64,000 bases of DNA from Erysipelotrichia bacterium. Lineage in GTDB: Bacteria; Bacillota_I; Bacilli_A; RFN20; CAG-826. The position numbers and the translations under genes were made by a program. Location: positions 22,408-86,407 of the forward strand of contig JAAYJX010000107.1 in assembly GCA_012522695.1 (NCBI GenBank), read 5' to 3'. The notes below the pieces were generated by a model. The model was given only the letters and a program-made list of their open reading frames with translations. It did not search any database and was not told where the DNA came from. Positions 49,568 through 63,829 of the stretch are shown one piece after another. Positions within the stretch are counted from its first letter, which is position 1. Each line of letters starts with the position of its first letter.

Positions 49568-52063
49568 TTATTTTTTCTGATAATTATTTTTTAAAAATTC
49601 TAACGCGTCACTTTCATTTAAAGGACGTGATAAATAATAACCTTGAGCATAATCACAATTGTATGTTTTTAAATATTCTAAATGTGTTTCGTTTTCAACG
49701 CCTTCACCAACAACAAGAAAACCAAGTTTTTGACCAAGCGAGATAATGTCTTCAGTAATCGCTTTATTAATTTCAATTAATTCAATACCTTGTAAAAAAG
49801 CTTTATCAATTTTTAAAGCGTTGATTTCTAAAGAAATGAGACGATGAAGTGAAGAAAAGCCCGTGCCAAAGTCGTCAATTGCCACACGAATACCTTTTGA
49901 CGTTAATTTTTTTAATAATTGGTTAATACCAAAATAAGACGTTGTAAATGAAACTTCAGTTAATTCAAGCCAAATAGAACGTGGATTAACACCAATTGAT
50001 TCAATAAGAGCTAAAAATTTATTAACAAATTGGCGATCAAGTAATTGTTGAAAAGAAACATTAATCGACATCGACATATGATCATAGCCTAAATCATGGA
50101 CTGATTTTAAGAAAGTCAAAGCTAAACGGTTAATTTTATCACCGTAAATAATCATTAACTTATTCCTTTCTAATAGGGGAATAAATTCTAAAGGAGGGAT
50201 AAGACCTAACTTTTCGCTTTTAAAGCGGGCTAGGGCTTCAAAACCACTTATTTCGCCACGTTTAACATTAAAGATTGGTTGATATTGTAAATATAGTTGT
50301 TCATTATCAATTTGTACTGAAGCATCAACTAATTCTTTTAAAATTTGTTTTTCGCGTTCAATTTTTAAAGCAAGACGATCATCAAAATAACTAATCTCAA
50401 TTAATTTATCATCACTAGCTCTTTCTTGCTCAGTCGTTAAAAGAACGTTTTTAAGAATCGTTTCAAGTTGATTTGGCTTAGTATTTGGAGGAATATGTAA
50501 AACACCAACCCGGCACGTCACGCGTTCACTCCATAACAATGGTTCTAAAACTTTAACGACCTTTAAATAAAACTGATGGATTTCTTCTTCACTATCATAA
50601 TTTTTAATATAAAAACTTAAACGTGTTTCATGAGTAAGATATAGTTTACAATTATCATTTTCTAAAACTTTAAGTTTATTACTAATTTTCTTCATTAAAT
50701 CTCTTATATAGTGATAACCATGACTACTCGTTAATTGTTGAATTGAATTTAAGTTTAATAAGAAAAATGTTTTTTTCGATTTTTTATCATAAGTTAAATC
50801 ATACGTCATAAGTGTTTCTAAATAACGACGATTATGTAAACCCGTCCATTCATCAAATTCACTTCTATGTTTAATTTCTGCCTCATATTTTTTAATTTCG
50901 TTAATATCAATAATGATACCTTCTATGGCAATTGTTTCTTTATCACTATTAATGATCGGTTCACCAATTTCTAAGACCCATTTTTTCTCCTTATTTTTTG
51001 TAATAATCGGATATTGAAAACGGTATGTTGTTTGGTTTTTAACAGCTTTAAGTTGTAAATGGTAAATTTCACTTAAATATTCAGGGGCGATTAAATCGAT
51101 AAATTTTAAATCACGATTATCAATAAAAGCTTCAGGTTCATAACCAGTTAATTCTCTTGAACCTTTGGAAACAAACACTTTCGTAAAATCTTTATCAATG
51201 CGACTACGATAAGCTAAACCTGGTAGATGCGATAACAAAACGTCTTTGCTTCTTTCGCTTTCAAGAAAAGAAAGTTCAAATGATTTACGAATGCTCGTAT
51301 CACGAATAATCGCAAAATAAGTAAAAATTTCATCATCGGGAATATCGACTTTAATAACGAATAAATGCGTATAAACAACATCACCATTAGGACGGATAAA
51401 ACGTTTATCTAGATCATATCGATCAATTTTGCCTTTGATAAAATCGTTAAAGTATTTTAAATCTTTTTCTAAATCTTCTGGATGAGTATATTTTCGCCAG
51501 TCAATTTCGGTATGAAGGTCTTCTTCGATTGGCACGCCTAAAATATCGCGAAAAGCTTTATTAGCTCGAAATGATTGTAAGCGACCACCGCCTCTACGGA
51601 AAAACCTTGTAATGGAAATACCAAAAGGCGCGTGATTAAAAAGAGCAACAAAAATTTCACGCATATCCGATGATCTTTTTGAAGCGATAACATATTCTTG
51701 ATCTTTTTCAATTGAGCGAACGGCAAAATTTAAAGCATCACCATTAATTGGTGTCGTTAAATATTCAAATGTTTGTAGTTCTTGTGATTCTAAATTGTTT
51801 TTAATTGTTTCTTCTTTGCCAAGTAGAATAACACGAATATCTTTTATTTTTTTATCAAATTTTAAATGAGCTAAAAGTTGGTAACCTAATAAATCAGGAG
51901 CGTCTAAATCTAAAAATAAAAGGGGCGAACTTTCAATTTTAGCAAAATAAGCTAGTGCTTTTTGAATATTCGAACTATAAAAAATTTTATAATTGTTTAA
52001 AGCTAGGCTAATCGTTTTGTAATGTTCGTCTTCTTTTGAGAAAACAATCGCATGTTTTGTCAT
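49568..52063 (-). CDS. Multidomain c-di-GMP signalling protein: REC-like, PAS, degenerate GGDEF and EAL phosphodiesterase
   Basis: 831 aa. N-terminal receiver-like fold. The GGDEF-domain start TGLHNRRYL is present but no GG(D/E)EF signature, so the cyclase looks degenerate. The EAL domain carries EALARF, DDFGTGFSSL and EGVE motifs and looks catalytically competent. Confidence 0.8.
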   Translation of the reverse strand: MTKHAIVFSKEDEHYKTISLALNNYKIFYSSNIQKALAYFAKIESSPLLFLDLDAPDLLGYQLLAHLKFDKKIKDIRVILLGKEETIKNNLESQELQTFEYLTTPINGDALNFAVRSIEKDQEYVIASKRSSDMREIFVALFNHAPFGISITRFFRRGGGRLQSFRANKAFRDILGVPIEEDLHTEIDWRKYTHPEDLEKDLKYFNDFIKGKIDRYDLDKRFIRPNGDVVYTHLFVIKVDIPDDEIFTYFAIIRDTSIRKSFELSFLESERSKDVLLSHLPGLAYRSRIDKDFTKVFVSKGSRELTGYEPEAFIDNRDLKFIDLIAPEYLSEIYHLQLKAVKNQTTYRFQYPIITKNKEKKWVLEIGEPIINSDKETIAIEGIIIDINEIKKYEAEIKHRSEFDEWTGLHNRRYLETLMTYDLTYDKKSKKTFFLLNLNSIQQLTSSHGYHYIRDLMKKISNKLKVLENDNCKLYLTHETRLSFYIKNYDSEEEIHQFYLKVVKVLEPLLWSERVTCRVGVLHIPPNTKPNQLETILKNVLLTTEQERASDDKLIEISYFDDRLALKIEREKQILKELVDASVQIDNEQLYLQYQPIFNVKRGEISGFEALARFKSEKLGLIPPLEFIPLLERNKLMIIYGDKINRLALTFLKSVHDLGYDHMSMSINVSFQQLLDRQFVNKFLALIESIGVNPRSIWLELTEVSFTTSYFGINQLLKKLTSKGIRVAIDDFGTGFSSLHRLISLEINALKIDKAFLQGIELIEINKAITEDIISLGQKLGFLVVGEGVENETHLEYLKTYNCDYAQGYYLSRPLNESDALEFLKNNYQKK

Positions 52064-52194
52064 CGTGCTTTAGTAAACAAAGTAAACAACTCTGTTTTGT
52101 AATCTTATTATAATAAAGATAAGTTAAAAAATATATAAATATGTCAAAAATATTTTAATTTTTAAAAAATAAACATCTAAAAAGTTATTTTATT

Positions 52195-52920
52195 TTAATC
52201 AAAAGAGTGAACTAATTCTTCTAAAAGCGTCTCAATTAAGCTACCAATATGAGGCTGAGCTTCTAAACCAATACGTAGGGCAGATATTAGCTGATTATCT
52301 TTGCCAACTTCGTAAGTAACGGCTTTAAGTAAAAGCCAAGGAACGTCATGAACATAACATGCCGTAATAACGCCACCAGATTCTGTATCAAGGGCGATTT
52401 TATTTTCAATGTGCGAAAAGTTTTTCTTAATTAATTCATTCGCAACTTTTAAATTCGTATGAAAAGTATTCGTTGAAACAAGTGGTCCACGACCAATATT
52501 TAAGTTTTCTGTCCGTGAGTTAAGTGTTTGAATTAAACGAATGTAATCATCTTCACTTGAATAAAAAACAGGTAAGTCTTTAATTTGTCCATATTTAGTA
52601 TTACCTAAAGCTTCTAAGTTCATATCACCTAAATGAACACGTTCAGCAATAAATAAATCACCTTGATGAAGGTTAGGACTAATTGAAGTAACCGCACCAA
52701 CAGAAATAACAATATAAGGTTTATACTTACTAATCATAAAACTTGTCACAATTGCGGAAGTAATATTTGAATAACCTGTATGGGCCAAACAAACATCTTT
52801 ACCAGCAAAAGAACCAACATAATAAGGATGTTTCATCGCGATTTTGTTTTCTTCGCTAATTTTTAGACGAGATTTAAAATATAAAATATCGTCTTCGGTT
52901 GTGCCAATAATTAAAATCAT
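52195..52920 (-). CDS. PNP_UDP_1-family nucleosidase (MTA/SAH nucleosidase-like)
   Basis: 241 aa. The N-terminal MILIIGTTEDD and the internal GSL / ESGG patterns resemble Pfs/MtnN-like phosphorylase-fold proteins. The assignment is moderate. Confidence 0.5.
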   Translation of the reverse strand: MILIIGTTEDDILYFKSRLKISEENKIAMKHPYYVGSFAGKDVCLAHTGYSNITSAIVTSFMISKYKPYIVISVGAVTSISPNLHQGDLFIAERVHLGDMNLEALGNTKYGQIKDLPVFYSSEDDYIRLIQTLNSRTENLNIGRGPLVSTNTFHTNLKVANELIKKNFSHIENKIALDTESGGVITACYVHDVPWLLLKAVTYEVGKDNQLISALRIGLEAQPHIGSLIETLLEELVHSFD

Positions 52921-54485
52921 TAATTACCACCTCTTCCTTTTTCAAAACGATTATTTTCTAAAAAGTTCATATAATTTTCTGGTCTAAGTGGTTCACTATA
53001 ATAAAACCCTTGAATACAATTTGCTCCCATTGATTGAAGAAGACGGATTTGTTCATATTCTTGAACACCTTCAATTACGACATATGCTTCTAAAATATGG
53101 GCAATTTTAATAATTTCACGGACTAAACCGCGTGATTTTTCATCAATTTCTAAATCACTTAAGAAAGCACGATCAATTTTAATAATGTCAAAAGGAATAC
53201 GTTTAATATAACTAAGTGAAGAGAAGCCTGTGCCAAAGTCGTCAATTGCTACTTTAATATTTAAAGCTTTAATTTTTTTGACAACCGCTAACAAATATAA
53301 AACGTCATATGGTGAAGGCGATTCAACGATTTCTACTTCTAATAACATCGGATTAATTTTATATTTTTTAATTGTTTCTTCAATATAAGGAACAACATCA
53401 CTACTAAAAATCATCCGTTTGGATAAGTTAACTGAAATAGGTAAAAGTCTTTTGCCGTGATCTCGCCAATGAGCTAAACGCTGACAAACAAGATCAAAAA
53501 CGTATTTATCAATTTCAATAATTAAATCAGATTGTTCGGCTAAAGAAATAAAAGCCGCTGGTGAAATTACACCACGCTCAGGATGAATCCAACGAAGTAG
53601 GGCTTCACTTGAAACAAAACGTTTAAGTTTTAAGTCGTATTTTGGTTGAAAGAAAACTTCAAATTCTTTTTTCTTTAAACCTTCTTCAATATCACGAGCT
53701 AAACCAACGTTACGTTCGCTTTTTTTAAACATTGAATCATTAAAAATAAAAATACCGCCGCGATCTGTATTAAGACGACCAAAATCACTTGCAATTAAAG
53801 CTGTTTGAAATAAACTTTCAGCCGAAGAGGTTTCTTTATTACGAATTGATAAACCATAGTGAGGATTAAAATCAATATTAACTTTTTCTTCACTTAAAAG
53901 ATGGTTAATATGTTCACTAAGTTTTTCTAAAGATTGTTGCATTTTCTTTTCGTTATATTTTGGAATAAAAAGTAAGAAGTTATCTGAATAATCATATCCA
54001 TAAAGTAATTTGGGATATTGTTTTTTTAATTCATCAATTGCTAAAAAAACCATACTAATAACTTTTGATTCTTTTTCATAACCATAACGTAAGAAAACTT
54101 CTTTTTTAAATTTAAACGTTGAAAAAGCAATTGCGACTGCTTCTTCATATTCTTTCCGACGGAAAAATTTATTAATTTGTAAAATTAAATCTCTTTCATC
54201 TAAAATATTTTCCGCTAATGGAAATAAGTTAGTATTTAAAACACGTTTAACAGATACTTGTTGCGAACGAGAGTAATTAATTAAGGCAAAAACTAAAAAG
54301 GCAATGCTTGTCAAAGTTAAAATAACAATTGCAAGTATTTTGTAGGCTAAATTACCATCAATGACTATAAAAGAGTCAAATAGCCCAGCGCTAACAATAA
54401 TATTTACAATAAAAAAGATAATAAAGCCTAAAAAATATAAGCTATATCGTAATGGATAATTAGGATTCTTATTTTTCATCTTCAT
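52920..54485 (-). CDS. Membrane-anchored degenerate-GGDEF / EAL c-di-GMP phosphodiesterase
   Basis: N-terminal 2 TM and a periplasmic-like loop. EAL domain with EALLRW and DDFGTGFSSL. No GGDEF signature. The start was probably trimmed to MKMKNKNP, and the track ORF extends to 54533. Confidence 0.75.
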   Translation of the reverse strand: MKMKNKNPNYPLRYSLYFLGFIIFFIVNIIVSAGLFDSFIVIDGNLAYKILAIVILTLTSIAFLVFALINYSRSQQVSVKRVLNTNLFPLAENILDERDLILQINKFFRRKEYEEAVAIAFSTFKFKKEVFLRYGYEKESKVISMVFLAIDELKKQYPKLLYGYDYSDNFLLFIPKYNEKKMQQSLEKLSEHINHLLSEEKVNIDFNPHYGLSIRNKETSSAESLFQTALIASDFGRLNTDRGGIFIFNDSMFKKSERNVGLARDIEEGLKKKEFEVFFQPKYDLKLKRFVSSEALLRWIHPERGVISPAAFISLAEQSDLIIEIDKYVFDLVCQRLAHWRDHGKRLLPISVNLSKRMIFSSDVVPYIEETIKKYKINPMLLEVEIVESPSPYDVLYLLAVVKKIKALNIKVAIDDFGTGFSSLSYIKRIPFDIIKIDRAFLSDLEIDEKSRGLVREIIKIAHILEAYVVIEGVQEYEQIRLLQSMGANCIQGFYYSEPLRPENYMNFLENNRFEKGRGGN

Positions 54486-55251
54486 CTCTCCTTTCTTCGC
54501 TTGAAGACCGCAGTTTTTCTTTTTCTTTTTCAATTAAAAGTTTGAGTTTTTCTTGCTGCTTAATTTTTTCAAATTCATCTAAGCCTTCAAAATCAACTGA
54601 AACTTTTTCTGTTTCTTCTTTGCGCTCTTTAACATTTTTAGAAATATCAAAAAGCGAGCTAATAAAAACGTATAAAAGAGGAACAAGACCAACGATAATA
54701 ATCGTAAAAGGATTGCGCGTAAATTTAACGAAAAGTCCTAAAGCTTTAGAGTTTTTAATCCAAACTCCTAAGACGTCTTCTTCTTTAATCGTGTCAATTC
54801 CTTTACCCGTGCTTTGATCGCACACACCATTAGGAAATTGAGAACAAGTTTCGGCATTTTTATTATCACCAAATGTTTTAAAAGTAAATTTACCATCATT
54901 TTCAATTTTTTCAATAACACGGTGAGTAATAATTAAGCCGTCACTTCGACGGAAATAAGTAATAATATCGCCATCCATTGCATCCTCACTACTAGGTCCT
55001 TTAATTTGATTAGCGGGGACGCGTTTAATAATAATACCAACATCAATCGGTAAAACTGGCTCCATCGAATCAGTTAAAACTGTCAGCATTTGATAATTAC
55101 CAAATCGTTGCACACCATGGTTACTTCTCGCCGTAATTAAACCAAAGACTTGAAAAAAGAGTAAAAGACCAGCAAGCGAACCTAAAACAATCGTTGTAAT
55201 TCTATTTACAAGTTTCTTTTTTGGTAACTTAACTTTTTCTTTCTTATTCAT
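54469..55251 (-). CDS. sipW: Signal peptidase I of ER/archaeal (SipW) type, with extended charged C-terminal tail
   Basis: 260 aa. N-terminal TM, SMEP catalytic-Ser motif (LTDSMEPVL) characteristic of SEC11/SipW-type SPases, a second C-terminal TM, then a K/E-rich tail. Confidence 0.75.
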   Translation of the reverse strand: MNKKEKVKLPKKKLVNRITTIVLGSLAGLLLFFQVFGLITARSNHGVQRFGNYQMLTVLTDSMEPVLPIDVGIIIKRVPANQIKGPSSEDAMDGDIITYFRRSDGLIITHRVIEKIENDGKFTFKTFGDNKNAETCSQFPNGVCDQSTGKGIDTIKEEDVLGVWIKNSKALGLFVKFTRNPFTIIIVGLVPLLYVFISSLFDISKNVKERKEETEKVSVDFEGLDEFEKIKQQEKLKLLIEKEKEKLRSSSEERRDEDEK

Positions 55252-56647
55252 CTTCTTTCCTTCTCATTTTAGCAACATTAATAACTTGTTCGCGCGCTTT
55301 TGCTAAAAGGGCTTCTTCTTCTAATCGTAGTTTTTCTAATCTTTCTTTTTCTTTTTTTGCTAAAATAGCGTCTTGTTTACGTTTAGCAAGAAGTAATTTA
55401 CGTTGACGTTCTTTTTCTTTCTTTTCAAGAGCTTTAAGTGCGGCAAGTTTTTTTGCCTCTTCGCGTTTTTCTAAAGCAAGTTGACGTTCTTTAGCTCTTT
55501 CTTCAAGACGAAGTTGTCGACGTTTTTCAGCCGCTTCAGCCCGTTTAATTTTTGCTTCAATTTGGGCAAGTGTTTCTTTTTTAACATCAACGCCGAAGGT
55601 TACGCTTTTACCAATAATTTTATCGTCAGTTAAATCAACATCAAGACGAACTTTTTTAAAGCGAGGTTTATAAAAGTATTGTTTCTTTTTATCACTTGGC
55701 ATCGTATGGTCACTTCTAAGTGTTAAATAAGAACTTAACATTAATAAATGTAAATCATCTAAATAATCTTCTTTAAATTCAATATCGTTTTGGCTAAAGC
55801 GATATTCAATACCTAAGACGTCATAACGTGTAATAAAAAGCCAGAGACGATACGCTGCTTGATATTCATAATTAAGACGCATTATATTTGTTTGTTGGAC
55901 CGGATCACTAACTGGTGCGACTTTACGCATTTCAAGCATAAAGCGCGAAGTTGTTAAGTATGTAATCCGTTTACGAATATGAAGAAGACGGTCGAGTAAA
56001 TCAGCATTAGCGTGTCTTTTCCCATCATCATCACTAGGAACAACAATCCGCATCTTAGTTTCAAATTCATATGATACTTCGTCGATTTTCATTTCTGAAG
56101 TTAATTTAACAATATCACTATGCCGTGTATCACTATGTTCAGATATATATTTATATCTAAGTTCAATAAAAGCTTGAAGACGACGAACAAGCGTCATAAT
56201 AAAACGGTTTTCATATATTTTTAATTCATCATCCATAAACATATTTAAAACTCGTTTAGGTTCGATTGTTCCATCACTACCAACTGAGCGGATATTTTGT
56301 GTATTTTGTGACATATGTTCAATTGAACGTTGGGTAATCTTTTTCGCCTTTTCAACACCGACAACTTCGGCTGTTTCTTTAATAAAACGATGTGGATCAT
56401 TAACAATTGCTTCTAAAGAAGGAAGCGCTCTTTCAATTTCTAAAATAAAATCAGGTGCATAAGTTTTAACTTCACGACGCGACACACCGCCATAAGTATT
56501 TTTAGAAGCAGCAAAAATATTTAAAAGTTCATGATATTCTTCATCACTACTTGCTAAACGTTTTAAGCGTGAAAAATGTTTTTGTTTTAAATCTTTAATA
56601 ATTTCGCTAGGAGTTAATACGGGAGCGTCTTTTTTGGTTTTTGCCAT
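55244..56647 (-). CDS. Hypothetical protein with a long C-terminal K/E/R-rich coiled coil. Partner of the AAA_5 ATPase; McrC-like role possible.
   Basis: 467 aa. No recognisable catalytic motifs beyond weak D...E.K-like stretches. Its start overlaps the sipW stop (8 nt) and it is 16 nt downstream of the ATPase gene. The last ~120 aa are a heptad-rich charged tail. Confidence 0.45.
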   Translation of the reverse strand: MAKTKKDAPVLTPSEIIKDLKQKHFSRLKRLASSDEEYHELLNIFAASKNTYGGVSRREVKTYAPDFILEIERALPSLEAIVNDPHRFIKETAEVVGVEKAKKITQRSIEHMSQNTQNIRSVGSDGTIEPKRVLNMFMDDELKIYENRFIMTLVRRLQAFIELRYKYISEHSDTRHSDIVKLTSEMKIDEVSYEFETKMRIVVPSDDDGKRHANADLLDRLLHIRKRITYLTTSRFMLEMRKVAPVSDPVQQTNIMRLNYEYQAAYRLWLFITRYDVLGIEYRFSQNDIEFKEDYLDDLHLLMLSSYLTLRSDHTMPSDKKKQYFYKPRFKKVRLDVDLTDDKIIGKSVTFGVDVKKETLAQIEAKIKRAEAAEKRRQLRLEERAKERQLALEKREEAKKLAALKALEKKEKERQRKLLLAKRKQDAILAKKEKERLEKLRLEEEALLAKAREQVINVAKMRRKEDE

Positions 56648-56662
56648 GACTATCCTCCTTTA

Positions 56663-58183
56663 TTAACCTATTTTTAAATAATCTGAAATAATTCTTTGTG
56701 ATTGCCAAAAAACACCTTTACCAAATAATTTATCAAGTTCACTCGAAAGTTCTTTTAATTCATCGTGCATAAACGCTAAGTTAAGCGAAGTAAATTTCTT
56801 TAAAACTTTAGAAGCAAAAATAAAATCAAGTGCTTCGTTTTCTGTACCCCCGCAAGCAATATAGTTCGAAGTAAAAAGACGAAGTTGTCTTAAAATTCGA
56901 TTACCAAAAGCAATCCGAAAACGATCAGCAACAAGTTTATCTAAACGATCAAATTTTGTTAATGCTTCTTTACTAATTGGGTAATTTGTTTGAGCGTTAG
57001 CAAAAAGTTTTAAAAAATCAGCTGAAGAAATTGAAACACCTTCCGTATATTCAACTGAACATGCTTCAATTTTTTCATTTAAAGTAATACTAATTGCTCG
57101 ATCATAAACTTTATCAGTAATTGTAAAAGTTGAGTCATCATTATTTGCTGTACCGACAAACCAAAGGTTTTGGGAAATAAGTAATTTACCATTTTCTAAT
57201 TGTTTAGGATTAATATTATCGGCTGTTCTTGTAATTTGAACTTTCCATTCATCAACCGAAGGCATTTCCATAATTGAAAGAAAGTCAGCAAAATAATATT
57301 CAATACGCGCGAGGTTCATTTCATCAAGAATAATCATATTCGGTTCTTGACGGTAACTTGCTTCATAAATAGCTTGTAAAAATTCGGTTTCATTAAACTT
57401 TTTCGTAAATTCATTAAAATAACCGAGCATTTCTGTTCTTTCTCGCCAAGATGGTTGAACAGAACATATTACCGCGTCATGTTTAAAAAACTTACCAATT
57501 GCATATGGTAAAGAAGTTTTACCAGTTCCCGAAATACCTTCTAAAATAATAAACTTCGATGTTCCTAACGCCGCAAACATCGTCCGAACTGTGCTCATAT
57601 CATAATATAAACAAAGCTGAGAGGCGGCAAAACGGAAAAAACGATCAACAATTTGTTCTAAAGAAATACCAATATCACTAGGTGGAACTTCGACAGTTGT
57701 ATCTAAATCAGCATATTTAATATCTATTGCTCCCAATTTTGGAAAGGCTTCTAAAACACGACGGTCACTACCTTCACCATCTTCACCTTCTGGTTGAAGA
57801 CCAAAAGAATCAGCTTTAAGTTTTAAAATTTCATTTTTTTCTTGAATTGCTAAAAATAATTCTTTATTTAATTTTTGCACTTCATCAAGAAGTTTTTCTT
57901 TTGAAACACGGCGATTATTAAAAACAATAAGTTTACGAACTAAAAAATACATAACGTAACCAAGTGAACCAATAAGGGCAAAGACTAAAATAATAAAAAC
58001 GACGAAGAGAATCCAGCCTCCTGCGCCGAATTGATGATTGTATGTTTGAAAAATTAATTTGTATTGACCAAAGTCACTACCAACTCCATACCAAGGTTCA
58101 GCAAAAATCGTTGCTAAAAAATGGCCTAAGTTTTTAAATAAAGCTTCAAACAACTCTCGAATGTAATTAAAAAATGCACTCAT
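56663..58183 (-). CDS. Membrane-anchored AAA_5 (McrB-like) ATPase/GTPase
   Basis: 506 aa. One strongly hydrophobic TM (WILFVVFIILVFALIGSLGYVMYFLV), a coiled coil, Walker A EGISGTGKTS, McrB-like Walker B/sensor ILDEMNLARIEYYF and FVGTANNDD. Confidence 0.65.
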   Translation of the reverse strand: MSAFFNYIRELFEALFKNLGHFLATIFAEPWYGVGSDFGQYKLIFQTYNHQFGAGGWILFVVFIILVFALIGSLGYVMYFLVRKLIVFNNRRVSKEKLLDEVQKLNKELFLAIQEKNEILKLKADSFGLQPEGEDGEGSDRRVLEAFPKLGAIDIKYADLDTTVEVPPSDIGISLEQIVDRFFRFAASQLCLYYDMSTVRTMFAALGTSKFIILEGISGTGKTSLPYAIGKFFKHDAVICSVQPSWRERTEMLGYFNEFTKKFNETEFLQAIYEASYRQEPNMIILDEMNLARIEYYFADFLSIMEMPSVDEWKVQITRTADNINPKQLENGKLLISQNLWFVGTANNDDSTFTITDKVYDRAISITLNEKIEACSVEYTEGVSISSADFLKLFANAQTNYPISKEALTKFDRLDKLVADRFRIAFGNRILRQLRLFTSNYIACGGTENEALDFIFASKVLKKFTSLNLAFMHDELKELSSELDKLFGKGVFWQSQRIISDYLKIG

Positions 58184-58239: not shown

Positions 58240-59436
58240 TTAAATATCTTCTTCACTAGCAGCACTAAAGCGTAAGTTTGCACCGAACGATTTAGATCTA
58301 AGCTTGTTGCTAGAAAAGGCGTCCCAGCCTTCATACCAAATTTGAATTTTAATTTCGGCCACGCCTTTTGTGTCAGTTTTAGCAATTGGCTGACCATCAA
58401 TAAATTCGGCGCTATAAGTCGAAAAAATTGTATGTTCTTGAAGGGCTGGTTTGTAGTTAGGGTGATCAATTAATAAAGGGCGTACGCCTTGTAATGTCCC
58501 TGCTTGATGAAGCGAGGGGGTTATACTAGTTTCCAAAGGAATACTTTCAGTAGTAATATCCCCCCAATTACTTTCATCTAAAGGTTCTAAGAAATCGCCA
58601 TAAGCAATTTCATAACGTGAGCCAACTTCTGATTCATCATTTGGATTAATTTTAGATCCCTCAGGTGTGGCATCAAAAAATCCATCTTCATCTAAATCAA
58701 GGCGGCCCCCGACCGTTGTGTAATCATTTGTATCGCGACCCGGACTAATAATATCGCTCGTTAATTGGCTTTCAAAACCAAAACGCAAAACTTTCAGCAA
58801 TTCTTCGCTGCCATAAAATTCATTGTCCGCGCCGATGAAGATGCCATAATTAGCAACTCCACTTGATGATGTCTCACCATTAGTTGCTTTCGCTACCCGA
58901 AATAATATTGTAAAAGAAATAAATGTTTCTTTATCAGCGGGTATTATTTGTTTTGCTTGTGGACGAGAACTACCGGCAATTGGTTCTTGATATAAGTTAA
59001 TTGCATCACCTTTACTAAAACGTCGAGAAGTAATAGGCATAACTGCATTAGTAACCGAGAAACCATTGTGATAGATAATTTGTCGCAACGTTTGATTATT
59101 AACGACGTTGCTCGTCCAATAAACATAGCCGTCACCTTCAATTCCGTATTCATCTGGAACTAAAGAATATTTTTCTTGTTCATTAATCGAAATTGGTGTG
59201 GCGACACGAAAGCCTACTTCTCTTATGCCGACTTCTTCTTTATTTAAAAAGTCAAAGCCGATTGTCGTTGTGTTAGCTAAATATTCACCAATCGTATAGC
59301 CAAGATAAGAAATTAAGACAAACGCTGCTAAAACACTACTTGAAATCGAGGTTAAAATGATCGAACGTTTTTTACGCTTCTTATGATCATTAACTTCTTT
59401 TTCTATATTAATTTGACGCAAACGCAAGTCCTCCAC
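58240..59436 (-). CDS. Membrane-anchored extracellular protein, distant paralogue of the TasA-like family (TapA-like anchor/accessory candidate)
   Basis: 398 aa. N-terminal basic stretch plus one TM. C-terminal AEIKIQIWYEGWDAF...GANLRF resembles VDVTFRFWIEGEDEH...IGGVFKIDLKMY of the three downstream paralogues. The annotated start is GTG. A TTG 5 codons in has better GGAGGA spacing. Confidence 0.5.
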   Translation of the reverse strand: MEDLRLRQINIEKEVNDHKKRKKRSIILTSISSSVLAAFVLISYLGYTIGEYLANTTTIGFDFLNKEEVGIREVGFRVATPISINEQEKYSLVPDEYGIEGDGYVYWTSNVVNNQTLRQIIYHNGFSVTNAVMPITSRRFSKGDAINLYQEPIAGSSRPQAKQIIPADKETFISFTILFRVAKATNGETSSSGVANYGIFIGADNEFYGSEELLKVLRFGFESQLTSDIISPGRDTNDYTTVGGRLDLDEDGFFDATPEGSKINPNDESEVGSRYEIAYGDFLEPLDESNWGDITTESIPLETSITPSLHQAGTLQGVRPLLIDHPNYKPALQEHTIFSTYSAEFIDGQPIAKTDTKGVAEIKIQIWYEGWDAFSSNKLRSKSFGANLRFSAASEEDI

Positions 59437-59907: not shown

Positions 59908-60267
59908 TTATTTTTCTTTTTTAGCCGCTAATTCTTTTTCAAGTTCTTCACGTGCTTGACGACGCGCTTCTTCTAAAAGTTCTTCGTGCGATAAAGCCGC
60001 TACAGCGCCTTCTTTTTCCGTCATTAATGATTTAACAAGTAAGAAGACATTAAACAAGAATAGAATGATTAAAGGCAATACAATTAAAACAAAGAACCAA
60101 ACAGGATTCATTTGTAACCATTTAATAAACATATTAGATGATTCCCCTAACGTAGTTAAGGCAACAATTGAAATAGTAACGAGAACAACGGTAAGTACGA
60201 TCTGTGCGATAACTAAAACCAAATTCAGCCAGCTAGGCAATTTAATTTTTGTTTTTTCTTTATTCAT
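59908..60267 (-). CDS. Small membrane protein (2 TM, charged C-terminal helix)
   Basis: 119 aa. Two hydrophobic helices, then EELLEEARRQAREELEKELAAKKEK. Confidence 0.5.
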   Translation of the reverse strand: MNKEKTKIKLPSWLNLVLVIAQIVLTVVLVTISIVALTTLGESSNMFIKWLQMNPVWFFVLIVLPLIILFLFNVFLLVKSLMTEKEGAVAALSHEELLEEARRQAREELEKELAAKKEK

Positions 60268-60406: not shown

Positions 60407-61300
60407 TTAAGCAATAACTGGTAATGCGTACATCTTAAGATCGATTTTAAAGACACCACCGATAGCAGCGTTAACTGCGTGTTCGTCTTCGCCTTCAATC
60501 CAAAAACGGAAAGTGACATCAACAGTTGGAGCAGCGGATGTAAGTGTAAGGAAGGGTTCATAATTGTCAGCAGCAGCTTCTGCTACAGTTGGGTAGTAAT
60601 CAAATGCAGCGCCTTCCACAACGTCAGTTAAAACTTCAGTGTCAAGATATTCTTTAACACCCCAAGCTTCATCTTGGTCATCACCAGTTTTGGTTAAATA
60701 ATTGTAAGTTGTTTCTGCTTCAGGTGAATAATGATAAAATGCAGCTCCACCTTTAATCGCGGCCATACGAACGGCTTTAACAGCAGCAACGTCTGCGGCA
60801 TCAGCGCTTGCAGCGGTAACTGCAGTGCCTGCGTCAAAATAAACGTTTAAATCATTTGTTGATTGTGCGCCTGAGCCACGAGCGATTGTTAATGTAAAGT
60901 CAATTAAATAACCATCGGCATCACCAGCAGCGGCTAATGTAATATCATCAATACGATCGGCAACTTGGCCTCCGCCATAGGTGTTGGCCTTCCAGACTGG
61001 TTTGTAAAAATCAATACCGTCGCCGGAAATGTCAGTAACCTTGTTACCGCCTGAAAGAACAACATTATTAACAGTTTTACCATCATTAACATAATCATTA
61101 GTTGTGGCAGTCATAGTGTTTAGGGATGAAACATAGTGAACACTTAAGTCATTATCTTGTGTTTCAACGGTTGCGCTACTATATGAGATAGATGCGCTAC
61201 GGACGGTTGTAAACCAAGCAAATGTTGAGCTGGTTGCAGCAATACCACTTAAAACAACGAGTCCCATAATTGTAAGTAATACTTTATTTTTCTTATTCAT
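60407..61300 (-). CDS. Secreted TasA/camelysin-like protein with SipW-cognate signal peptide (paralogue 1)
   Basis: 297 aa. MNKKNKVLLTIMGLVVLSGIAATSSTFAWFTTV matches the SipW-dependent signal class (compare B. cereus CalY ...GGGTFAFFSD). The mature part is Ala/Thr/Gly-rich. The conserved C-terminus FRFWIEGEDEHAVNAAIGGVFKIDLKMYALPV is present. Confidence 0.7.
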   Translation of the reverse strand: MNKKNKVLLTIMGLVVLSGIAATSSTFAWFTTVRSASISYSSATVETQDNDLSVHYVSSLNTMTATTNDYVNDGKTVNNVVLSGGNKVTDISGDGIDFYKPVWKANTYGGGQVADRIDDITLAAAGDADGYLIDFTLTIARGSGAQSTNDLNVYFDAGTAVTAASADAADVAAVKAVRMAAIKGGAAFYHYSPEAETTYNYLTKTGDDQDEAWGVKEYLDTEVLTDVVEGAAFDYYPTVAEAAADNYEPFLTLTSAAPTVDVTFRFWIEGEDEHAVNAAIGGVFKIDLKMYALPVIA

Positions 61301-61336: not shown

Positions 61337-62227
61337 TTATAAGTTTACGGGTAATCCGTAAAGTTGTAATTCGATGTCGAATAATCCGCCAATGGCGTCA
61401 TTATCACAATGAACATCTTCACCTTCGAGCCATGCACGGAAGGTAACATCAACTGAAGCTCCTTTTGCCACACTAGCAATTGCAGTTGTAGCACCATCAG
61501 CAGTAGTCACATCAGTGTATTCAACAAACGCATTGTAATAAGGTCCGGCGTGGACAGCGGTTGTATACCCGTCTACACTATAAAGGTCTTCACCAGCGTC
61601 TTCGACAATGTGCTTATGTCCACCAGCTTCTGCTTCAGGTGAATAAATTAAGACGACAGCATCAGCTGCGCTAATAACAGCTAAGCGTGCAGCTTTAACA
61701 GCGGCAGCATTTTTAGCTTCTTGAGCTAATTCTTCTGGTGTTGCAGTACCCCCAGCGTATTCAACTTCTTTAGCAATAATTTTTGTGTCTGGACCAAGAT
61801 ATACTTTCATATCATCATCACCAATATCGTCAAGACTAATCGTGATCGTAAAGTCAACGTAATAACCATCAGCGCTTGTTGCACCCACGGTTGGAATTTC
61901 ATTAGCGACACGAGCAGATGGTTTGTCAAGTAGTGAATTCCAAACAGGTTTGTAAAAAACAAGACCATCACTTGAGACGTCTGTAATATCATTAATGCCA
62001 TCTAAAATGATTTCGTTGGCACTGCCAGTATCAGTCATACCAGAGTTTAATGAAGATTTAAAAGCAATATCTAAATTACCTTCTTTAGTAACGACTTTCG
62101 CGCTGGAATAATGTAGGGAAGCTGTTCGCGCAGTATAAAACCAAGCAAACGTTGAACTAATAGCAGCAATTCCGCTTAAAAAAGCTAAGCCAATTGTTGC
62201 TAATAAAATTTTGTTTTTCTTATTCAT
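61337..62227 (-). CDS. Secreted TasA/camelysin-like protein with SipW-cognate signal peptide (paralogue 2)
   Basis: 296 aa. MNKKNKILLATIGLAFLSGIAAISSTFAWFYTART. C-terminus FRAWLEGEDVHCDNDAIGGLFDIELQLYGLPV. Confidence 0.7.
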   Translation of the reverse strand: MNKKNKILLATIGLAFLSGIAAISSTFAWFYTARTASLHYSSAKVVTKEGNLDIAFKSSLNSGMTDTGSANEIILDGINDITDVSSDGLVFYKPVWNSLLDKPSARVANEIPTVGATSADGYYVDFTITISLDDIGDDDMKVYLGPDTKIIAKEVEYAGGTATPEELAQEAKNAAAVKAARLAVISAADAVVLIYSPEAEAGGHKHIVEDAGEDLYSVDGYTTAVHAGPYYNAFVEYTDVTTADGATTAIASVAKGASVDVTFRAWLEGEDVHCDNDAIGGLFDIELQLYGLPVNL

Positions 62228-62755: not shown

Positions 62756-63829
62756 TTAAATGACTGACAATGCATACATTCTTAGGTCAATACTAAAGAC
62801 ACCACCAATTGCGGCGTTAACTGCATCATCGTCTTCGCCTTCAACCCAAAAGCGGAAAGTAATATGAGCAGTTGGATCAGCTTCAGTAAGTGTAAGAAGG
62901 GGTTTATAATTTGCGTCTTCAGCTTCGACAACAGTTGAAAAATATTTAAACTCAGAACCTTTTTCATTTATTGTCGGTGTTGAAGGGTCATCTTGAATAC
63001 CTTCAACAGCATTAATCACATCTTCAGGATCAGCGGCATCACCTAAAATTGATGTATTAGAATAACCTAAAATAGTATAAGTAGTTCCACCACTGTCTTC
63101 ACTTAAATAATTATAAAGAGGCTCCGCGTGTGGCGCGTAATAGAAAATAGGCTTTAAGGGGCTTATATCGTCTATTACGGGATTATCAGGGTCAGTAATG
63201 TCATAAGTAACATCTGTTTCAATTACGGCCATTCTTACGGCTTCAACGACTTTATTATTTCGATCTTGTTGTTCAATTTGAGCATTACTTGGATTTTGAT
63301 TTTCGCCTATAACATCAATTGGCGAAATAAGTGTCCCACGATCAAAATAAATATTTAAATCATTTGGCGAATAAAGGTTAACACCACGAGCTATTTCTAA
63401 AGTAAAATCAATTAAATATCCATCAGCAGATTTAGTAAGATTGCCTTTATTATCTTTGTAAGATAAATCTATTTCATTAATATAGTCAGCTATACTTGCA
63501 TCGCCTGGATCATAAGCACTCCAAACAGGTTTGTAAAAATTAATGCCATCGCCTGAAATATCAGTAACTTTGTTAAGACCAGAAAGGACAACATTATTAG
63601 AACTTTTTCCTTCATTAACAGAAAGATTTGTTGTTGCGGTCACTGAATTAAGTGATGATATATATTTAACACTTAGGTCGTTATTTTTTGTTTCAACAGT
63701 TGCGCTTGTAAAAGAAATTATCGCACTACGAACGGTAGTAAACCAAGCAAAGGTTGAACCAGTCGCCGCCGCACCACTTAAAACAACAAGGCCAATTGTT
63801 GTTAGTAATAATTTATTTTTCTTATTCAT
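62756..63829 (-). CDS. Secreted TasA/camelysin-like protein with SipW-cognate signal peptide (paralogue 3, with ~60-aa insertion)
   Basis: 357 aa. MNKKNKLLLTTIGLVVLSGAAATGSTFAWFTTV. N-terminal 110 aa nearly identical to paralogue 1. C-terminus FRFWVEGEDDDAVNAAIGGVFSIDLRMYALSV. Confidence 0.7.
   Translation of the reverse strand: MNKKNKLLLTTIGLVVLSGAAATGSTFAWFTTVRSAIISFTSATVETKNNDLSVKYISSLNSVTATTNLSVNEGKSSNNVVLSGLNKVTDISGDGINFYKPVWSAYDPGDASIADYINEIDLSYKDNKGNLTKSADGYLIDFTLEIARGVNLYSPNDLNIYFDRGTLISPIDVIGENQNPSNAQIEQQDRNNKVVEAVRMAVIETDVTYDITDPDNPVIDDISPLKPIFYYAPHAEPLYNYLSEDSGGTTYTILGYSNTSILGDAADPEDVINAVEGIQDDPSTPTINEKGSEFKYFSTVVEAEDANYKPLLTLTEADPTAHITFRFWVEGEDDDAVNAAIGGVFSIDLRMYALSVI

What the first reader, a model, noticed from the sequence alone, without database searches (positions are those of the whole stretch)
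55244..58183. Membrane-anchored McrB-like AAA_5 ATPase with a coiled-coil partner inside the fibre locus
The 506-aa protein combines a single very hydrophobic TM, a coiled coil and a McrB-type AAA_5 module (GISGTGKTS; ILDEMNLARIEYYF; FVGTANNDD). It is followed 16 nt later by a 467-aa protein with a ~120-aa K/E/R-rich coiled-coil tail. The order mirrors mcrB then mcrC. Known McrB proteins are soluble with an N-terminal DNA reader, not TM-anchored. Two readings are possible. One is a divergent McrBC-like or other anti-phage module inserted into this accessory region. The other is a mechano-ATPase for assembly or export of the TasA-like fibres. Either would be new.
Basis: partly seen in the sequence, partly recalled or inferred. 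Interest (0 to 1): 0.65.

Follow-up and report, generated by a model that had tools for sequence, protein, structure and literature searches.

The report
McrBC-like GTPase pair beside SipW
A membrane-anchored relative of the McrB restriction GTPase and a nuclease-less McrC-like partner form a conserved, chromosomal operon with a SipW-type signal peptidase and its secreted substrates, so they most likely serve surface-structure biogenesis rather than phage defence; the class was named CoCoPALM in 2024 but has never been studied.

Summary
Both ORFs are real: 56663-58183 (506 aa) and 55244-56647 (467 aa), minus strand, 15 nt apart, with a strong RBS between them. The first is a McrB-type GTPase. 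Walker A, Walker B and an invariant N347-x-D349 signature are intact, and hhalign against E. coli McrB gives 97% probability. It sits behind one TM helix and a short coiled coil. The partner belongs to the McrC N-domain family: close homologues pass Pfam DUF2357. It has no PD-(D/E)xK nuclease and ends in a 107-residue helix. Its stop overlaps the start of a SipW-like peptidase. This architecture matches 'CoCoPALM', named in three sentences by Bell et al. (eLife 2024) and not followed up since. Across 86 related loci (Acholeplasmatales, Izemoplasmatales, Clostridia), the partner follows the GTPase in 73 of 78. A SipW-like gene follows the partner in 55 of 66. Secreted proteins with a T-x-A-W-F/Y signal motif are nearly always present, and EAL genes in 35 of 45. 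Two Ruminococcus loci fuse partner and SipW into one protein. No full-length copy occurs on plasmids or viral contigs, whereas soluble relatives sit in defence-like islands. The fibre-biogenesis reading is favoured over defence. 'TasA-like' is supported only for the signal peptide. Verdict: new member of a known, uncharacterised kind.

The parts
56663..58183 (-). McrB-like NxD-clade GTPase (506 aa) with N-terminal membrane anchor and short coiled coil ('B')
   Evidence: ORF. PDB phmmer best hit is E. coli McrB. hhalign of family alignment A2 against E. coli McrB gives 96.9% probability. AAA_5 hits 29 of 32 family members. PADLOC PDC-M26A scores 3.8e-41, over the GTPase part only.
57938..58018 (-). 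Single TM helix of B (about residues 56-82), followed by a basic stretch, which places the GTPase in the cytoplasm
   Evidence: Hydropathy peak 2.82. RKLIVFNNRRVSKEK lies directly after the helix. More distant homologues have 2 or more TM helices at the same position.
57515..57538 (-). Walker A, G216-ISGTGK222-T223
   Evidence: G216, G219, G221, K222 and T223 are invariant in alignment A2.
57320..57325 (-). Walker B, D287-E288 (ILDEMN)
   Evidence: D287 is invariant and E288 is at least 90% conserved.
57137..57145 (-). McrB signature N347-N-D349 (NxD variant)
   Evidence: N347 and D349 are invariant, whereas D350 varies (D/E/Q). The motif aligns with NTAD of E. coli McrB.
55244..56647 (-). McrC-like partner without nuclease (467 aa, 'C')
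   Evidence: ORF. 18 of 41 family members hit Pfam DUF2357. P0129, 58% identical to the window protein, scores 25.6 bits against a gathering cut-off of 23.3 over residues 74-174. No PD-(D/E)xK family hit appears in 41+5 members.
55658..56470 (-). Conserved alpha/beta core of C (about residues 60-330), including the invariant Y145-E-N-R-F149
   Evidence: Alignment A1 invariant columns. AF2 model pLDDT is 80-95 over this region.
55250..55570 (-). C-terminal K/E/R-rich single long helix or coiled coil of C (residues 360-466)
   Evidence: AF2 helix H360-466. PDB profile hits in this region are only to low-complexity coiled coils.
54469..55251 (-). SipW-type (ER/archaeal-type) signal peptidase I (260 aa) with a C-terminal TM and K/E-rich tail. 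Its start overlaps the stop of C by 8 nt.
   Evidence: NCBIfam SipW 3.8e-18 and sigpep_I_arch 2.5e-12, both below the curated cut-offs. S62 (SMEP), H110 (THRV) and D129 (GDN) are present, with TMs at 14-32 and 182-200. Overlap shown.
58240..59436 (-). 398-aa membrane-anchored divergent paralogue of the secreted proteins ('t'), directly upstream of B
   Evidence: jackhmmer hits for the 398-aa query overlap those of the T proteins in 171 of 175 cases. TM at 25-43. It lacks the T-x-A-W-F motif.
59908..60267 (-). 119-aa small membrane protein with a charged helical tail ('m'), conserved in this layout
   Evidence: A terminator-like hairpin lies just downstream at 59880-59855, but the scan as a whole is not above chance.
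60407..61300 (-). Secreted beta-rich protein T1 with a SipW-type signal (TSSTFAWFT)
   Evidence: AF2 pLDDT 82, pTM 0.80, mostly beta. T26, A28, W29 and F30 are invariant. The signal region aligns to the TasA signal peptide.
61337..62227 (-). Paralogue T2
   Evidence: 44% identical to T1.
62756..63829 (-). Paralogue T3
   Evidence: 61% identical to T1.
52920..54533 (-). 2-TM EAL-domain protein (c-di-GMP phosphodiesterase family) immediately after SipW; conserved neighbour
   Evidence: Pfam EAL 3.5e-66. TMs. EAL genes occur in 35 of 45 loci.
52195..52920 (-). PNP_UDP_1-type nucleosidase-like gene, conserved after the EAL gene in this layout
   Evidence: Precomputed Pfam PF01048 on the syntenic genes. 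Layout.
49568..52063 (-). 831-aa EAL-containing signalling protein at the distal end of the conserved block
   Evidence: A syntenic EAL protein of about 1015-1030 aa occurs in L002, L004, L010, L011 and others.

Best explanation
The pair is a CoCoPALM-type McrBC derivative. It is a vertically inherited, chromosomal, non-nuclease module that is one component of a SipW-dependent cell-surface protein system. It is not a restriction or defence system.

Shown:
- B is a membrane-anchored McrB-family NTPase with every catalytic motif intact.
- C retains the McrC N-terminal (DUF2357) domain, which in McrBC plugs the McrB hexamer and stimulates GTP hydrolysis. C has lost the nuclease and carries a long helix instead.
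- B, C and SipW are translationally coupled and co-inherited with proteins that carry SipW-type signal peptides, and with EAL genes.
- In some genomes C and SipW are a single polypeptide.

Inferred mechanism:
- B forms a hexamer held at the inner face of the membrane by its TM and coiled-coil stalk.
- The N-domain of C docks into the hexamer and switches on GTP hydrolysis.
- The coiled coil of C pairs with the cytoplasmic K/E-rich tails of SipW and of the small membrane protein. In the fusions it continues directly into SipW's first TM. This physically couples the GTPase cycle to the peptidase.
- GTP hydrolysis therefore gates or drives SipW cleavage of the T proteins, their release from the membrane, and their hand-over into a surface polymer. 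The 398-aa membrane-anchored paralogue may act as base or anchor.
- The flanking EAL proteins place the process under c-di-GMP control.
For: Identity:
- Walker A, Walker B, N347-x-D349 and R362 are invariant.
- hhalign to E. coli McrB gives 96.9% probability, and phmmer to McrB structures is the best PDB hit.
- DUF2357 is hit by 18 of 41 partner homologues, several above the gathering cut-off.
- The architecture matches the CoCoPALM description in Bell et al. 2024 (PMC11090510).

Not a nuclease:
- No PD-(D/E)xK Pfam hit occurs in 46 partners.
- No conserved D...(D/E)xK lies after the N-domain.
- In the AF2 model, residues 310-359 are disordered and 360-466 form one helix.

Linkage:
- The partner lies directly downstream in 73 of 78 loci (median gap 19 nt).
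- A SipW-like gene lies within 300 nt after the partner in 55 of 66 loci (median overlap 4 nt).
- Of 45 loci with at least 4 kb on both sides, 45 have a SipW-like gene, 42 have T proteins and 35 have EAL genes.
- Gene order is the same in loci whose GTPase is only 50-58% identical to the window's.
- Two locus layouts track GTPase sequence similarity.
- Partner-SipW fusions in L051 and L063 run N-domain, coiled coil, TM, peptidase (GSMEP/THRI/GDAN), TM, charged tail.

Substrates:
- The T-x-A-W-F/Y motif is widespread.
- It aligns to the TasA signal/cleavage region.
- TIGR04088 is hit weakly.

Not mobile:
- There are 0 full-length hits on 72,556 plasmids and only 3 partial hits in 2.9 million viral contigs.
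- No defence genes lie among the window's neighbours.
- GC content is unremarkable.

Contrast: the soluble 725-aa relative P0304 sits with an AAA_11/AAA_12 helicase near KilA-N, which is a defence-like context.
Against: - No experiment exists for any member.
- GTP versus ATP use, hexamer formation, and B-C and C-SipW contacts are all inferred by analogy with McrBC.
- The window partner itself does not reach any Pfam threshold. Its profile does not match E. coli McrC directly, and Foldseek of its model found nothing.
- The T proteins are not demonstrably TasA-fold or fibre-forming.
- Known TasA and ABP fibres assemble by donor-strand exchange without any NTPase (PMC9245690), so the need for a motor is unexplained.
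- Five Acholeplasmataceae-type loci have B but no recognisable C.
- The clade's closest soluble relatives are defence-associated, and PADLOC's candidate PDC-M26A matches the GTPase domain.
Confidence: 0.6

Rival explanations
1. Defence or conflict system. On this reading the pair is a divergent Type IV restriction or CoCoNuT-like immune module. It is anchored at the membrane and acts on invading nucleic acid, or triggers abortive infection, perhaps when phages attach to the surface structure.
For: The GTPase belongs to the NxD clade, whose other members (CoCoNuTs) are predicted immune systems (PMC11090510). PADLOC candidate PDC-M26A matches at 3.8e-41. The soluble relative P0304 lies in a helicase/KilA-N island. 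GTPase-domain relatives are common on plasmids.
Against: There is no nuclease or other effector domain in the partner. The partner does not match any PADLOC model. Synteny with SipW, secreted proteins and EAL is strict across orders. GTPase conservation is unusually high, 42-60% identity between Acholeplasmatales-type and Clostridia loci. No full-length copy occurs on plasmids or viral contigs. The partner is fused to SipW in two loci.
Confidence: 0.1
2. Regulatory switch rather than motor. Here B-C is a nucleotide-state sensor or checkpoint, comparable to a MoxR-type or STAND-type switch. It turns SipW activity or locus expression on and off in response to c-di-GMP or the energy state, without doing mechanical work on substrates.
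For: EAL genes are conserved in the locus. McrB hexamers are plugged by McrC rather than threading polypeptides (established knowledge of McrBC structures 6HZ4 and 6UT6). TasA-type fibres need no energy source (PMC9245690).
Against: No c-di-GMP-binding domain was detected in B or C. Long coiled coils and membrane anchoring are more typical of force-transmitting or scaffolding assemblies. This rival overlaps with the best explanation and cannot be separated from it computationally.
Confidence: 0.2
3. Membrane-remodelling or cell-division factor. On this view the FtsB-like TM and coiled coil plus the GTPase act in division or membrane organisation of wall-less Bacilli, and the SipW neighbourhood is incidental.
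For: Bell et al. describe the N-terminal fusion as FtsB-like. One JGI record names a homologue 'FtsL'. One of 32 members hits DivIC at E=0.012. The gene is highly conserved in Acholeplasmatales-like lineages.
Against: The family is equally present in walled Clostridia. The FtsB/DivIC similarity is barely detectable. Linkage to SipW and secreted proteins is near-universal and includes a gene fusion. No division genes lie in the conserved block.
Confidence: 0.05

Closest known systems
[quoted passage not shown]
   Same: The window locus has an NxD-type McrB GTPase with a TM and coiled coil fused to its N-terminus. It has an adjacent McrC (DUF2357) homologue carrying a coiled coil, and an associated signal-peptidase-family gene. 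All four features were found here.
   Different: Nothing contradicts membership. The published description is three sentences with no component list or function. This analysis adds six things: the SipW-cognate substrates; the EAL and nucleosidase neighbours; the two locus layouts; loss of the nuclease; the partner-SipW fusions; and the absence from plasmids and viruses. FtsB homology itself was barely detectable here.
E. coli McrBC Type IV restriction enzyme (PDB 6HZ4, 6UT6, 7VSR)
   Same: The GTPase core is homologous, with Walker A, Walker B, the Nx(x)D signature and the basic residue after it. The gene order is B then C, and C has an N-terminal activator-type domain.
   Different: There is no N-terminal DNA-reader domain; a TM and coiled coil stand in its place. 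The signature is NxD, not NxxD. The partner has no PD-(D/E)xK nuclease, and its profile does not match E. coli McrC directly. The genomic context is secretory, not restriction-modification.
CoCoNuT systems and PADLOC candidate PDC-M26
   Same: They share the NxD GTPase clade and coiled coils on the McrC homologue. PDC-M26A matches the GTPase domain. The nearest soluble relatives lie with UPF1-like helicases, as in CoCoNuT types II and III.
   Different: Those proteins are soluble, 700-870 aa, have RNA/DNA-binding or nuclease partners, and occur in defence islands and on plasmids. The window pair is membrane-anchored and effector-less, and its partner matches no PADLOC model.
tapA-sipW-tasA operon of Bacillus subtilis (and archaeal AbpA/AbpB)
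   Same: Both have a dedicated ER-type signal peptidase encoded next to several secreted proteins whose signal peptides end in T-x-A followed by an aromatic-F/Y. Both include a larger paralogue that could play a TapA-like anchoring role (inference).
   Different: No NTPase is part of the Bacillus or Pyrobaculum systems (PMC9245690). The mature domains of the window's T proteins show no sequence or Foldseek similarity to TasA.
Type IV pilus / type II secretion assembly ATPases (PilB/GspE with the PilC platform and prepilin peptidase PilD)
   Same: This is a functional analogy only. In both, a cytoplasmic hexameric NTPase is coupled through membrane components to a dedicated signal peptidase and to subunits with N-terminal hydrophobic signals.
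   Different: The NTPase is unrelated (an AAA+ McrB clade versus the PilT/VirB11 class). The peptidase is unrelated (a Ser/His SipW type versus the aspartyl PilD). There is no homology between the subunits.

Membership tests
McrB-family GTPase (AAA+, AAA_5) | Walker A GxxGxGK[TS] and Walker B hhhhDE | tested here: met
   G216-K222-T223 and D287 are invariant, and E288 is at least 90% conserved, in 32 diverse homologues.
McrB-family GTPase (AAA+, AAA_5) | Nx(x)D signature motif after the fourth strand | tested here: met
   N347 and D349 are invariant (NxD variant). The motif aligns with NTAD of E. coli McrB.
McrB-family GTPase (AAA+, AAA_5) | Significant sequence or profile similarity to a characterised McrB GTPase domain | tested here: met
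   phmmer to 6hz4 gives E=6e-4. hhalign of A2 against E. coli McrB gives probability 96.9%, E=1.3e-10. AAA_5 is hit in 29 of 32 members.
McrB-family GTPase (AAA+, AAA_5) | N-terminal DNA-recognition domain | tested here: not met
   The N-terminal 190 residues hold a TM helix and a short coiled coil, with no DNA-binding family hit.
McrB-family GTPase (AAA+, AAA_5) | GTP-specific hydrolysis stimulated by McrC; hexamer formation | not testable with these tools
   This needs biochemistry or a multimer structure.
McrC | N-terminal McrB-activating domain (Pfam DUF2357 type) | tested here: met
   The window protein itself gives no hit. However, 18 of 41 homologues do. These include P0129, 58% identical to the window protein, at 25.6 bits against a cut-off of 23.3 over residues 74-174, the same conserved core. 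A direct profile comparison with E. coli McrC was not significant.
McrC | C-terminal PD-(D/E)xK endonuclease with catalytic D...(D/E)xK | tested here: not met
   No nuclease family hit occurs in 46 partners. No conserved acidic/lysine motif lies after residue 250. The AF2 model shows only a helix, a strand and a helix, then disorder, then a 107-residue helix.
CoCoPALM (Bell et al. 2024) | McrB GTPase of the NxD clade | tested here: met
CoCoPALM (Bell et al. 2024) | GTPase fused to an FtsB-like TM plus coiled-coil segment | tested here: inconclusive
   The TM and the conserved helical stretch are present. Homology to FtsB/DivIC is seen in only 1 of 32 members, at E=0.012.
CoCoPALM (Bell et al. 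2024) | Adjacent McrC homologue carrying a coiled coil | tested here: met
   The partner is adjacent in 73 of 78 related loci.
CoCoPALM (Bell et al. 2024) | Association with a signal-peptidase-family gene | tested here: met
   A SipW-like gene overlaps the partner's stop. This holds in 55 of 66 related loci. The two genes are fused in L051 and L063.
PADLOC candidate defence system PDC-M26 | All component genes present | tested here: not met
   Only PDC-M26A matches, and only its GTPase part (positions 315-431 of 724). The partner, SipW and the 398-aa protein match no PADLOC model.
SipW / ER-type signal peptidase I | Family HMM above the curated cut-off | tested here: not met
   NF046067 scores 65.7 bits against a cut-off of 190. 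TIGR02228 scores 46.9 against 51.85. The protein is a divergent relative, not an equivalog.
SipW / ER-type signal peptidase I | Catalytic Ser (SMEP box), His (HR[VI] box) and Asp (GDN box) | tested here: met
   S62, H110 and D129 are present in the window protein and in many homologues. The assignment of these boxes as catalytic rests on published SipW/Sec11 work recalled from memory.
TasA / camelysin (Peptidase_M73) fibre subunits | SipW-cognate signal peptide | tested here: met
   T26, A28, W29 and F30 are invariant. TIGR04088 is hit by 3 of 40 members, best E=0.01. JGI names the homologue P0404 as having a SipW-like signal peptide. Support is modest.
TasA / camelysin (Peptidase_M73) fibre subunits | Homologous jelly-roll mature domain | tested here: inconclusive

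The most novel reading that the evidence does not exclude
The most novel reading is that CoCoPALM is a previously unrecognised, NTP-powered pathway for building a surface filament or adhesin layer in Firmicutes, including wall-less Acholeplasmatales. On this reading a restriction-enzyme motor (the McrB hexamer plus the McrC activator) has been exapted. It has lost its nuclease and is mechanically coupled by coiled coils to a SipW-type signal peptidase. The coupling would extract, cleave and polymerise subunits under c-di-GMP control. That would make it a functional analogue of the type IV pilus machinery built from entirely different parts.
Probability: 0.35. Interest if true: 0.85.

Novelty: new member of a known kind. 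Interest (0 to 1): 0.55.

Why it matters
McrBC is the textbook GTP-dependent restriction enzyme. Here the same two-protein engine has lost its nuclease and its DNA reader and sits in the membrane. These range from Acholeplasma to gut Ruminococcus and Lachnospiraceae. If it energises or gates the assembly of a surface polymer, three things follow:
- It would be a clear case of an immune motor exapted for cell-surface biogenesis.
- It would define a new NTP-dependent secretion or assembly route in Gram-positive and wall-less bacteria.
- It would explain a block of conserved 'hypothetical' genes abundant in rumen and gut metagenomes.

A cultivable carrier, Acholeplasma granularum ATCC 19168, makes this testable. 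The natural partner-SipW fusions give a ready-made hypothesis for who touches whom.

Tried and rejected
1. Foldseek of the partner model against the PDB found no hit with E<0.02, and all TM-scores were about 0.1. The extended 107-residue helix probably spoils the search, so the result is uninformative.
3. A profile of the partner family against PDB sequences returned only low-complexity coiled-coil matches.
4. hhalign of the partner family against E. coli McrC was not significant. E. coli McrC belongs to a different Pfam family from DUF2357, so this does not contradict the DUF2357 hits.
5. The T-protein family gave nothing against PDB sequences and essentially nothing against Pfam. Foldseek of the T1 model against the PDB gave nothing. 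The label 'TasA-like' was therefore downgraded to 'SipW-type signal only'.
6. The promoter and terminator scan was not above the shuffled expectation. It was used only as a weak hint of an operon start near 59.7 kb.
7. Literature searches for DUF2357+TasA, McrB+SipW, PDC-M26, Acholeplasma+SipW/TasA, and McrB/McrC + signal peptidase/pilus/biofilm found nothing beyond Bell et al.. The one McrB+SipW co-occurrence was an E. coli strain genotype.
8. The supplements of Bell et al. that are held as text do not mention CoCoPALM.
9. I considered and rejected the idea that the pair is an insertion into an accessory region. GC content is unremarkable, and the whole block is syntenic across orders.
10. 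The SipW jackhmmer profile also pulled in the small 'm' proteins through TM and charged-tail similarity. Those hits were not counted as peptidases.

Full report
**1. The observation**

The two ORFs exist exactly where stated, on the minus strand: 56663-58183 (506 aa) and 55244-56647 (467 aa). The quoted motifs are all present. The 506-aa protein has one strongly hydrophobic segment, residues 57-82. A basic stretch follows it, then a conserved helical heptad-like stretch. The partner has no TM. Its C-terminal K/E/R-rich third is modelled as a single helix, residues 360-466.

The intergenic gap is 15 nt, with AAGGAGG 7 nt before the partner's ATG. The partner's stop overlaps the ATG of the next gene by 8 nt. 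The pair is far from a chance ORF pair. More than 8000 full-length homologues at 50-87% identity were scored. An exhaustive HMMER scan found 8436 50%-identity clusters at E<=1e-3 and 710 at E<=1e-30. An identical partner protein is on record from a MAG labelled 'Bacilli bacterium' (P0121).

**2. What the two proteins are**

*The GTPase (B).* The window protein scores only weakly against Pfam AAA families (AAA_5 E=0.031). AAA_5 is nevertheless hit by 29 of 32 diverse family members. The best solved-structure sequence match is E. coli McrB (6hz4, E=6e-4), aligned from Walker A through the signature motif. The family profile matches E. coli McrB with hhalign probability 96.9%, E=1.3e-10.

In an alignment reaching down to 29% identity, the following are invariant:
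- Walker A (G216, G219, G221, K222, T223)
- D287 of Walker B
- N290, R293 and E295
- N347 and D349
- R362

D350 varies. The signature is therefore N-x-D rather than the N-x-x-D of E. coli McrB. All catalytic motifs look intact.

*The partner (C).* The window protein hits no Pfam family. However, 18 of 41 homologues hit DUF2357, the McrC N-terminal domain. These include P0129, which is 58% identical to the window protein. P0129 scores 25.6 bits against a gathering cut-off of 23.3 over residues 74-174. That is the same conserved core that holds the invariant Y145-E-N-R-F149.

None of 46 partners examined, including ones of 880-2250 aa, hits a PD-(D/E)xK family. No conserved acidic/lysine motif follows the N-domain. 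The AlphaFold2 model (pLDDT 82.6) shows an alpha/beta domain to about residue 310, a disordered linker, and a 107-residue helix. The partner is thus a McrC N-domain protein that has lost the nuclease.

**3. The surroundings**

The gene overlapping the partner's stop (54469-55251) is a divergent ER/archaeal-type signal peptidase. It scores NCBIfam SipW 3.8e-18 and sigpep_I_arch 2.5e-12, both below the curated cut-offs. It has S62 (SMEP), H110 (THRV) and D129 (GDN), two TM helices and a K/E-rich tail.

Downstream follow:
- a 2-TM EAL protein (Pfam EAL 3.5e-66)
- a PNP_UDP_1-type gene
- a large EAL protein

Upstream lie:
- a 398-aa membrane-anchored protein
- a 119-aa membrane protein
- three paralogous 296-357-aa proteins ('T')

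The T proteins are beta-rich (AF2 pLDDT 82, pTM 0.80). They carry an invariant T26-x-A28-W29-F30 at the end of their signal peptide. A few members hit TIGR04088, 'SipW-dependent-type signal peptide'.

Beyond the signal peptide I could not show any relationship to TasA:
- no PDB sequence hit
- one of 40 members hitting Peptidase_M73, at E=0.0099
- no Foldseek hit

'TasA-like fibre locus' should therefore read 'SipW plus SipW-cognate secreted proteins'.

**4. Related loci**

Looking up three GTPase homologues of 50-58% identity returned the same gene order as in the window. That order is: ~300-aa T, ~130-aa membrane protein, ~360-380-aa t, GTPase, partner (491-727 aa, with DUF2357 on record), SipW-sized gene, EAL, PNP_UDP_1, large EAL.

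The best 80 come from:
- Acholeplasma (including the cultured A. granularum ATCC 19168), Paracholeplasma, Mariniplasma and Anaeroplasma
- Izemoplasmatales
- unclassified Bacilli
- Clostridia (Ruminococcus, Lachnospiraceae, Oscillospiraceae, Catabacter)

I labelled all ORFs of these loci with jackhmmer profiles seeded from the window's proteins. The results were:

| Measure | Result |
|---|---|
| Loci with at least 4 kb on both sides that carry the partner | 41 of 45 |
| Same loci with a SipW-like gene | 45 of 45 |
| Same loci with T-type proteins | 42 of 45 |
| Same loci with an EAL gene | 35 of 45 |
| Partner directly downstream of the GTPase (median gap 19 nt) | 73 of 78 |
| SipW-like gene within 300 nt after the partner (median overlap 4 nt) | 55 of 66 |
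| Loci with a second SipW-like gene directly upstream of the GTPase | 43 |

Two layouts exist:
- T-m-t-t-B-C-W-E-P-E, as in the window, where GTPase identity to the window is 46-60%
- E-E-T-T-T-W-B-C-W, where identity is 42-47%

Layout therefore tracks sequence similarity.

In two Ruminococcus loci the partner and the peptidase are one polypeptide. It runs N-domain, ~450 aa of K/E/R-rich helix, TM, peptidase with GSMEP/THRI/GDAN, TM, charged tail. This fusion is strong comparative evidence that the two act together. It also fixes the topology: the partner and its coiled coil are cytoplasmic and the peptidase domain is outside.

**5. Mobile or defence context?**

No full-length copy was found in 72,556 plasmids. 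All 287 matching records cover only the GTPase domain, at less than 41% identity. Only three partial matches turned up in 2.9 million viral contigs. None of the window's neighbours matches a PADLOC model except for the GTPase-domain match to candidate PDC-M26A. GC content is unremarkable.

More distant relatives behave differently:
- A 2-TM form (P0263) occurs as two tandem B-C pairs next to an ORF of more than 3176 aa.
- A multi-TM form (P0266) lies beside a Wzz/ParA-like/glycosyltransferase cluster.
- A soluble 725-aa form (P0304) lies with an AAA_11/AAA_12 helicase near KilA-N and thymidine kinase genes, a defence- or phage-like island.

None of these has SipW or T neighbours. SipW linkage is thus a property of the ~500-aa single-TM clade to which the window protein belongs.

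**6. Comparison with what is known**

[quoted passage not shown] In that clade the NxD GTPase is fused to an FtsB-like TM and coiled-coil domain. [quoted passage not shown] They name these CoCoPALM and defer analysis to a forthcoming paper.

I found no follow-up and no further detail in the preprint or in the supplements held. The window locus meets every stated feature. The one exception is homology of the N-terminal segment to FtsB/DivIC, which was barely detectable here (1 of 32 members, E=0.012).

It is not a McrBC restriction enzyme: it has no DNA reader and no nuclease. It is not a complete PDC-M26 system. It differs from the tapA-sipW-tasA and archaeal ABP systems, which contain no NTPase.

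**7. How it most likely works**

Shown:
- an intact McrB-type NTPase at the cytoplasmic face of the membrane
- a nuclease-less McrC N-domain partner with a long helix
- translational coupling to a SipW-type peptidase
- co-inheritance with SipW-cognate secreted proteins and EAL genes
- natural partner-SipW fusions

Inferred by analogy with the McrBC structures (established knowledge: a McrB hexamer is plugged and activated by the McrC N-domain):
- B hexamerises under the membrane.
- C docks into it and triggers GTP hydrolysis.
- C's coiled coil pairs with the cytoplasmic tails of SipW and the small membrane protein, or is fused to SipW. The nucleotide cycle then gates or drives cleavage and release of the T subunits and their assembly on the surface. 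The membrane-anchored 398-aa paralogue may act as base.
- The EAL proteins tie the process to c-di-GMP.

I give the statement 'dedicated surface-biogenesis module, not defence' about 0.6. The specifically mechanical (motor) version gets about 0.35. A purely regulatory switch is the main rival (0.2), defence gets 0.1, and a division or membrane role gets 0.05.

The main weaknesses are:
- no experimental data for any member
- unproven fibre formation by the T proteins
- no known energy requirement for TasA-type assembly
- a handful of Acholeplasmataceae loci that have B but no recognisable C

**8. Verdict**

The claim of novelty is only partly right, because the class already has a name. It is a new member of a known but uncharacterised kind.

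Interest is moderate to high (0.55). A specialist would find an exapted, nuclease-less McrBC engine wired to a signal peptidase intriguing. The fusions and a cultivable host make it testable. The idea itself, however, has already been flagged in print.

Noticed in passing
L051:7353-10307 and L063:9828-12824 (Ruminococcus sp. MAGs): The McrC-like partner and the SipW-like peptidase are fused into one 984/998-aa protein. It runs DUF2357-like N-domain, ~450 aa of K/E/R-rich helix, TM, peptidase (GSMEP, THRI, GDAN), TM, charged tail.
   Followed up: yes
L032:9017-15760 (bin labelled Faecalibacillus sp.): The partner homologue is 2247 aa. Its McrC-like N-domain (residues 200-502) and a coiled coil are followed by 15 Big_2 Ig-like repeats. 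No TM helix was detected, so the repeats would be cytoplasmic unless this is an assembly or frameshift artefact.
   Followed up: partly
L033:9980-20628; also L044, L053, L073, L085 (Acholeplasmataceae / Mariniplasma / 'Tenericutes' MAGs): The GTPase has no recognisable McrC-like partner. It is followed instead by three small proteins with T-x-A-W-F-type signals and, in L033, a 2329-aa putative surface protein.
   Followed up: partly
L088:4475-17554: A 2-TM relative of the GTPase occurs as two tandem GTPase-partner pairs (492+668 aa and 517+669 aa). They are followed by an ORF of more than 3176 aa. No SipW-like or T-like genes are nearby.
   Followed up: partly
L089:6123-11513: A multi-TM (658-aa) relative and its 501-aa partner lie head-to-head with a Wzz / ParA-like / glycosyltransferase exopolysaccharide cluster. 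This suggests other membrane-anchored branches of this GTPase clade are tied to other envelope polymers.
   Followed up: no
L091:3357-11969: The nearest soluble relative (725 aa) sits in a four-gene block with an AAA_11/AAA_12 helicase, a 483-aa protein and a DUF2357 partner, next to KilA-N and thymidine kinase genes. This is a defence- or phage-like context that resembles published CoCoNuT layouts.
   Followed up: partly
window 49568-54533 and related loci: Two EAL-domain proteins (one with 2 TM helices, one of 831 aa) and a PNP_UDP_1-type nucleosidase-like gene are conserved parts of the block. In the other layout, an EAL pair of about 470-480 aa and 730-880 aa sits at the upstream end. c-di-GMP genes in Acholeplasmatales-like genomes appear concentrated around this locus.
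   Followed up: partly
window 54469-55251, 59908-60267, 55250-55570, about 57800-57910: Four different proteins of the locus each carry a K/E-rich helical segment on the predicted cytoplasmic side: SipW (tail), the 119-aa protein (tail), the partner (tail) and the GTPase (stalk). The SipW jackhmmer profile even recruits the small protein through this similarity.
   Followed up: partly
window 45466-47361 and 47279-49030 (+ strand): There are two large adjacent lipoprotein-like ORFs of 631 and 583 aa. The first has a LTLVAGLIATFALSAC lipobox-like N-terminus. They overlap by about 80 nt if the listed GTG start is used. They were not analysed.
   Followed up: no
window 58240-59436 and L001:8777-9928: The paralogue directly upstream of the GTPase lacks the T-x-A-W-F motif. 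It has instead a conserved ISY-x-G-x-T-x-x-x-YLAN-x-TT after its TM. It may be an uncleaved, membrane-anchored member of the T family.
   Followed up: partly
(source annotations): Public records give these two families inconsistent names. For the GTPase: FtsL, MoxR-like ATPase, and ABC-type multidrug transport. For the partner: TolA, exonuclease SbcC, and DUF2357 domain-containing protein. No stable annotation exists.
   Followed up: no
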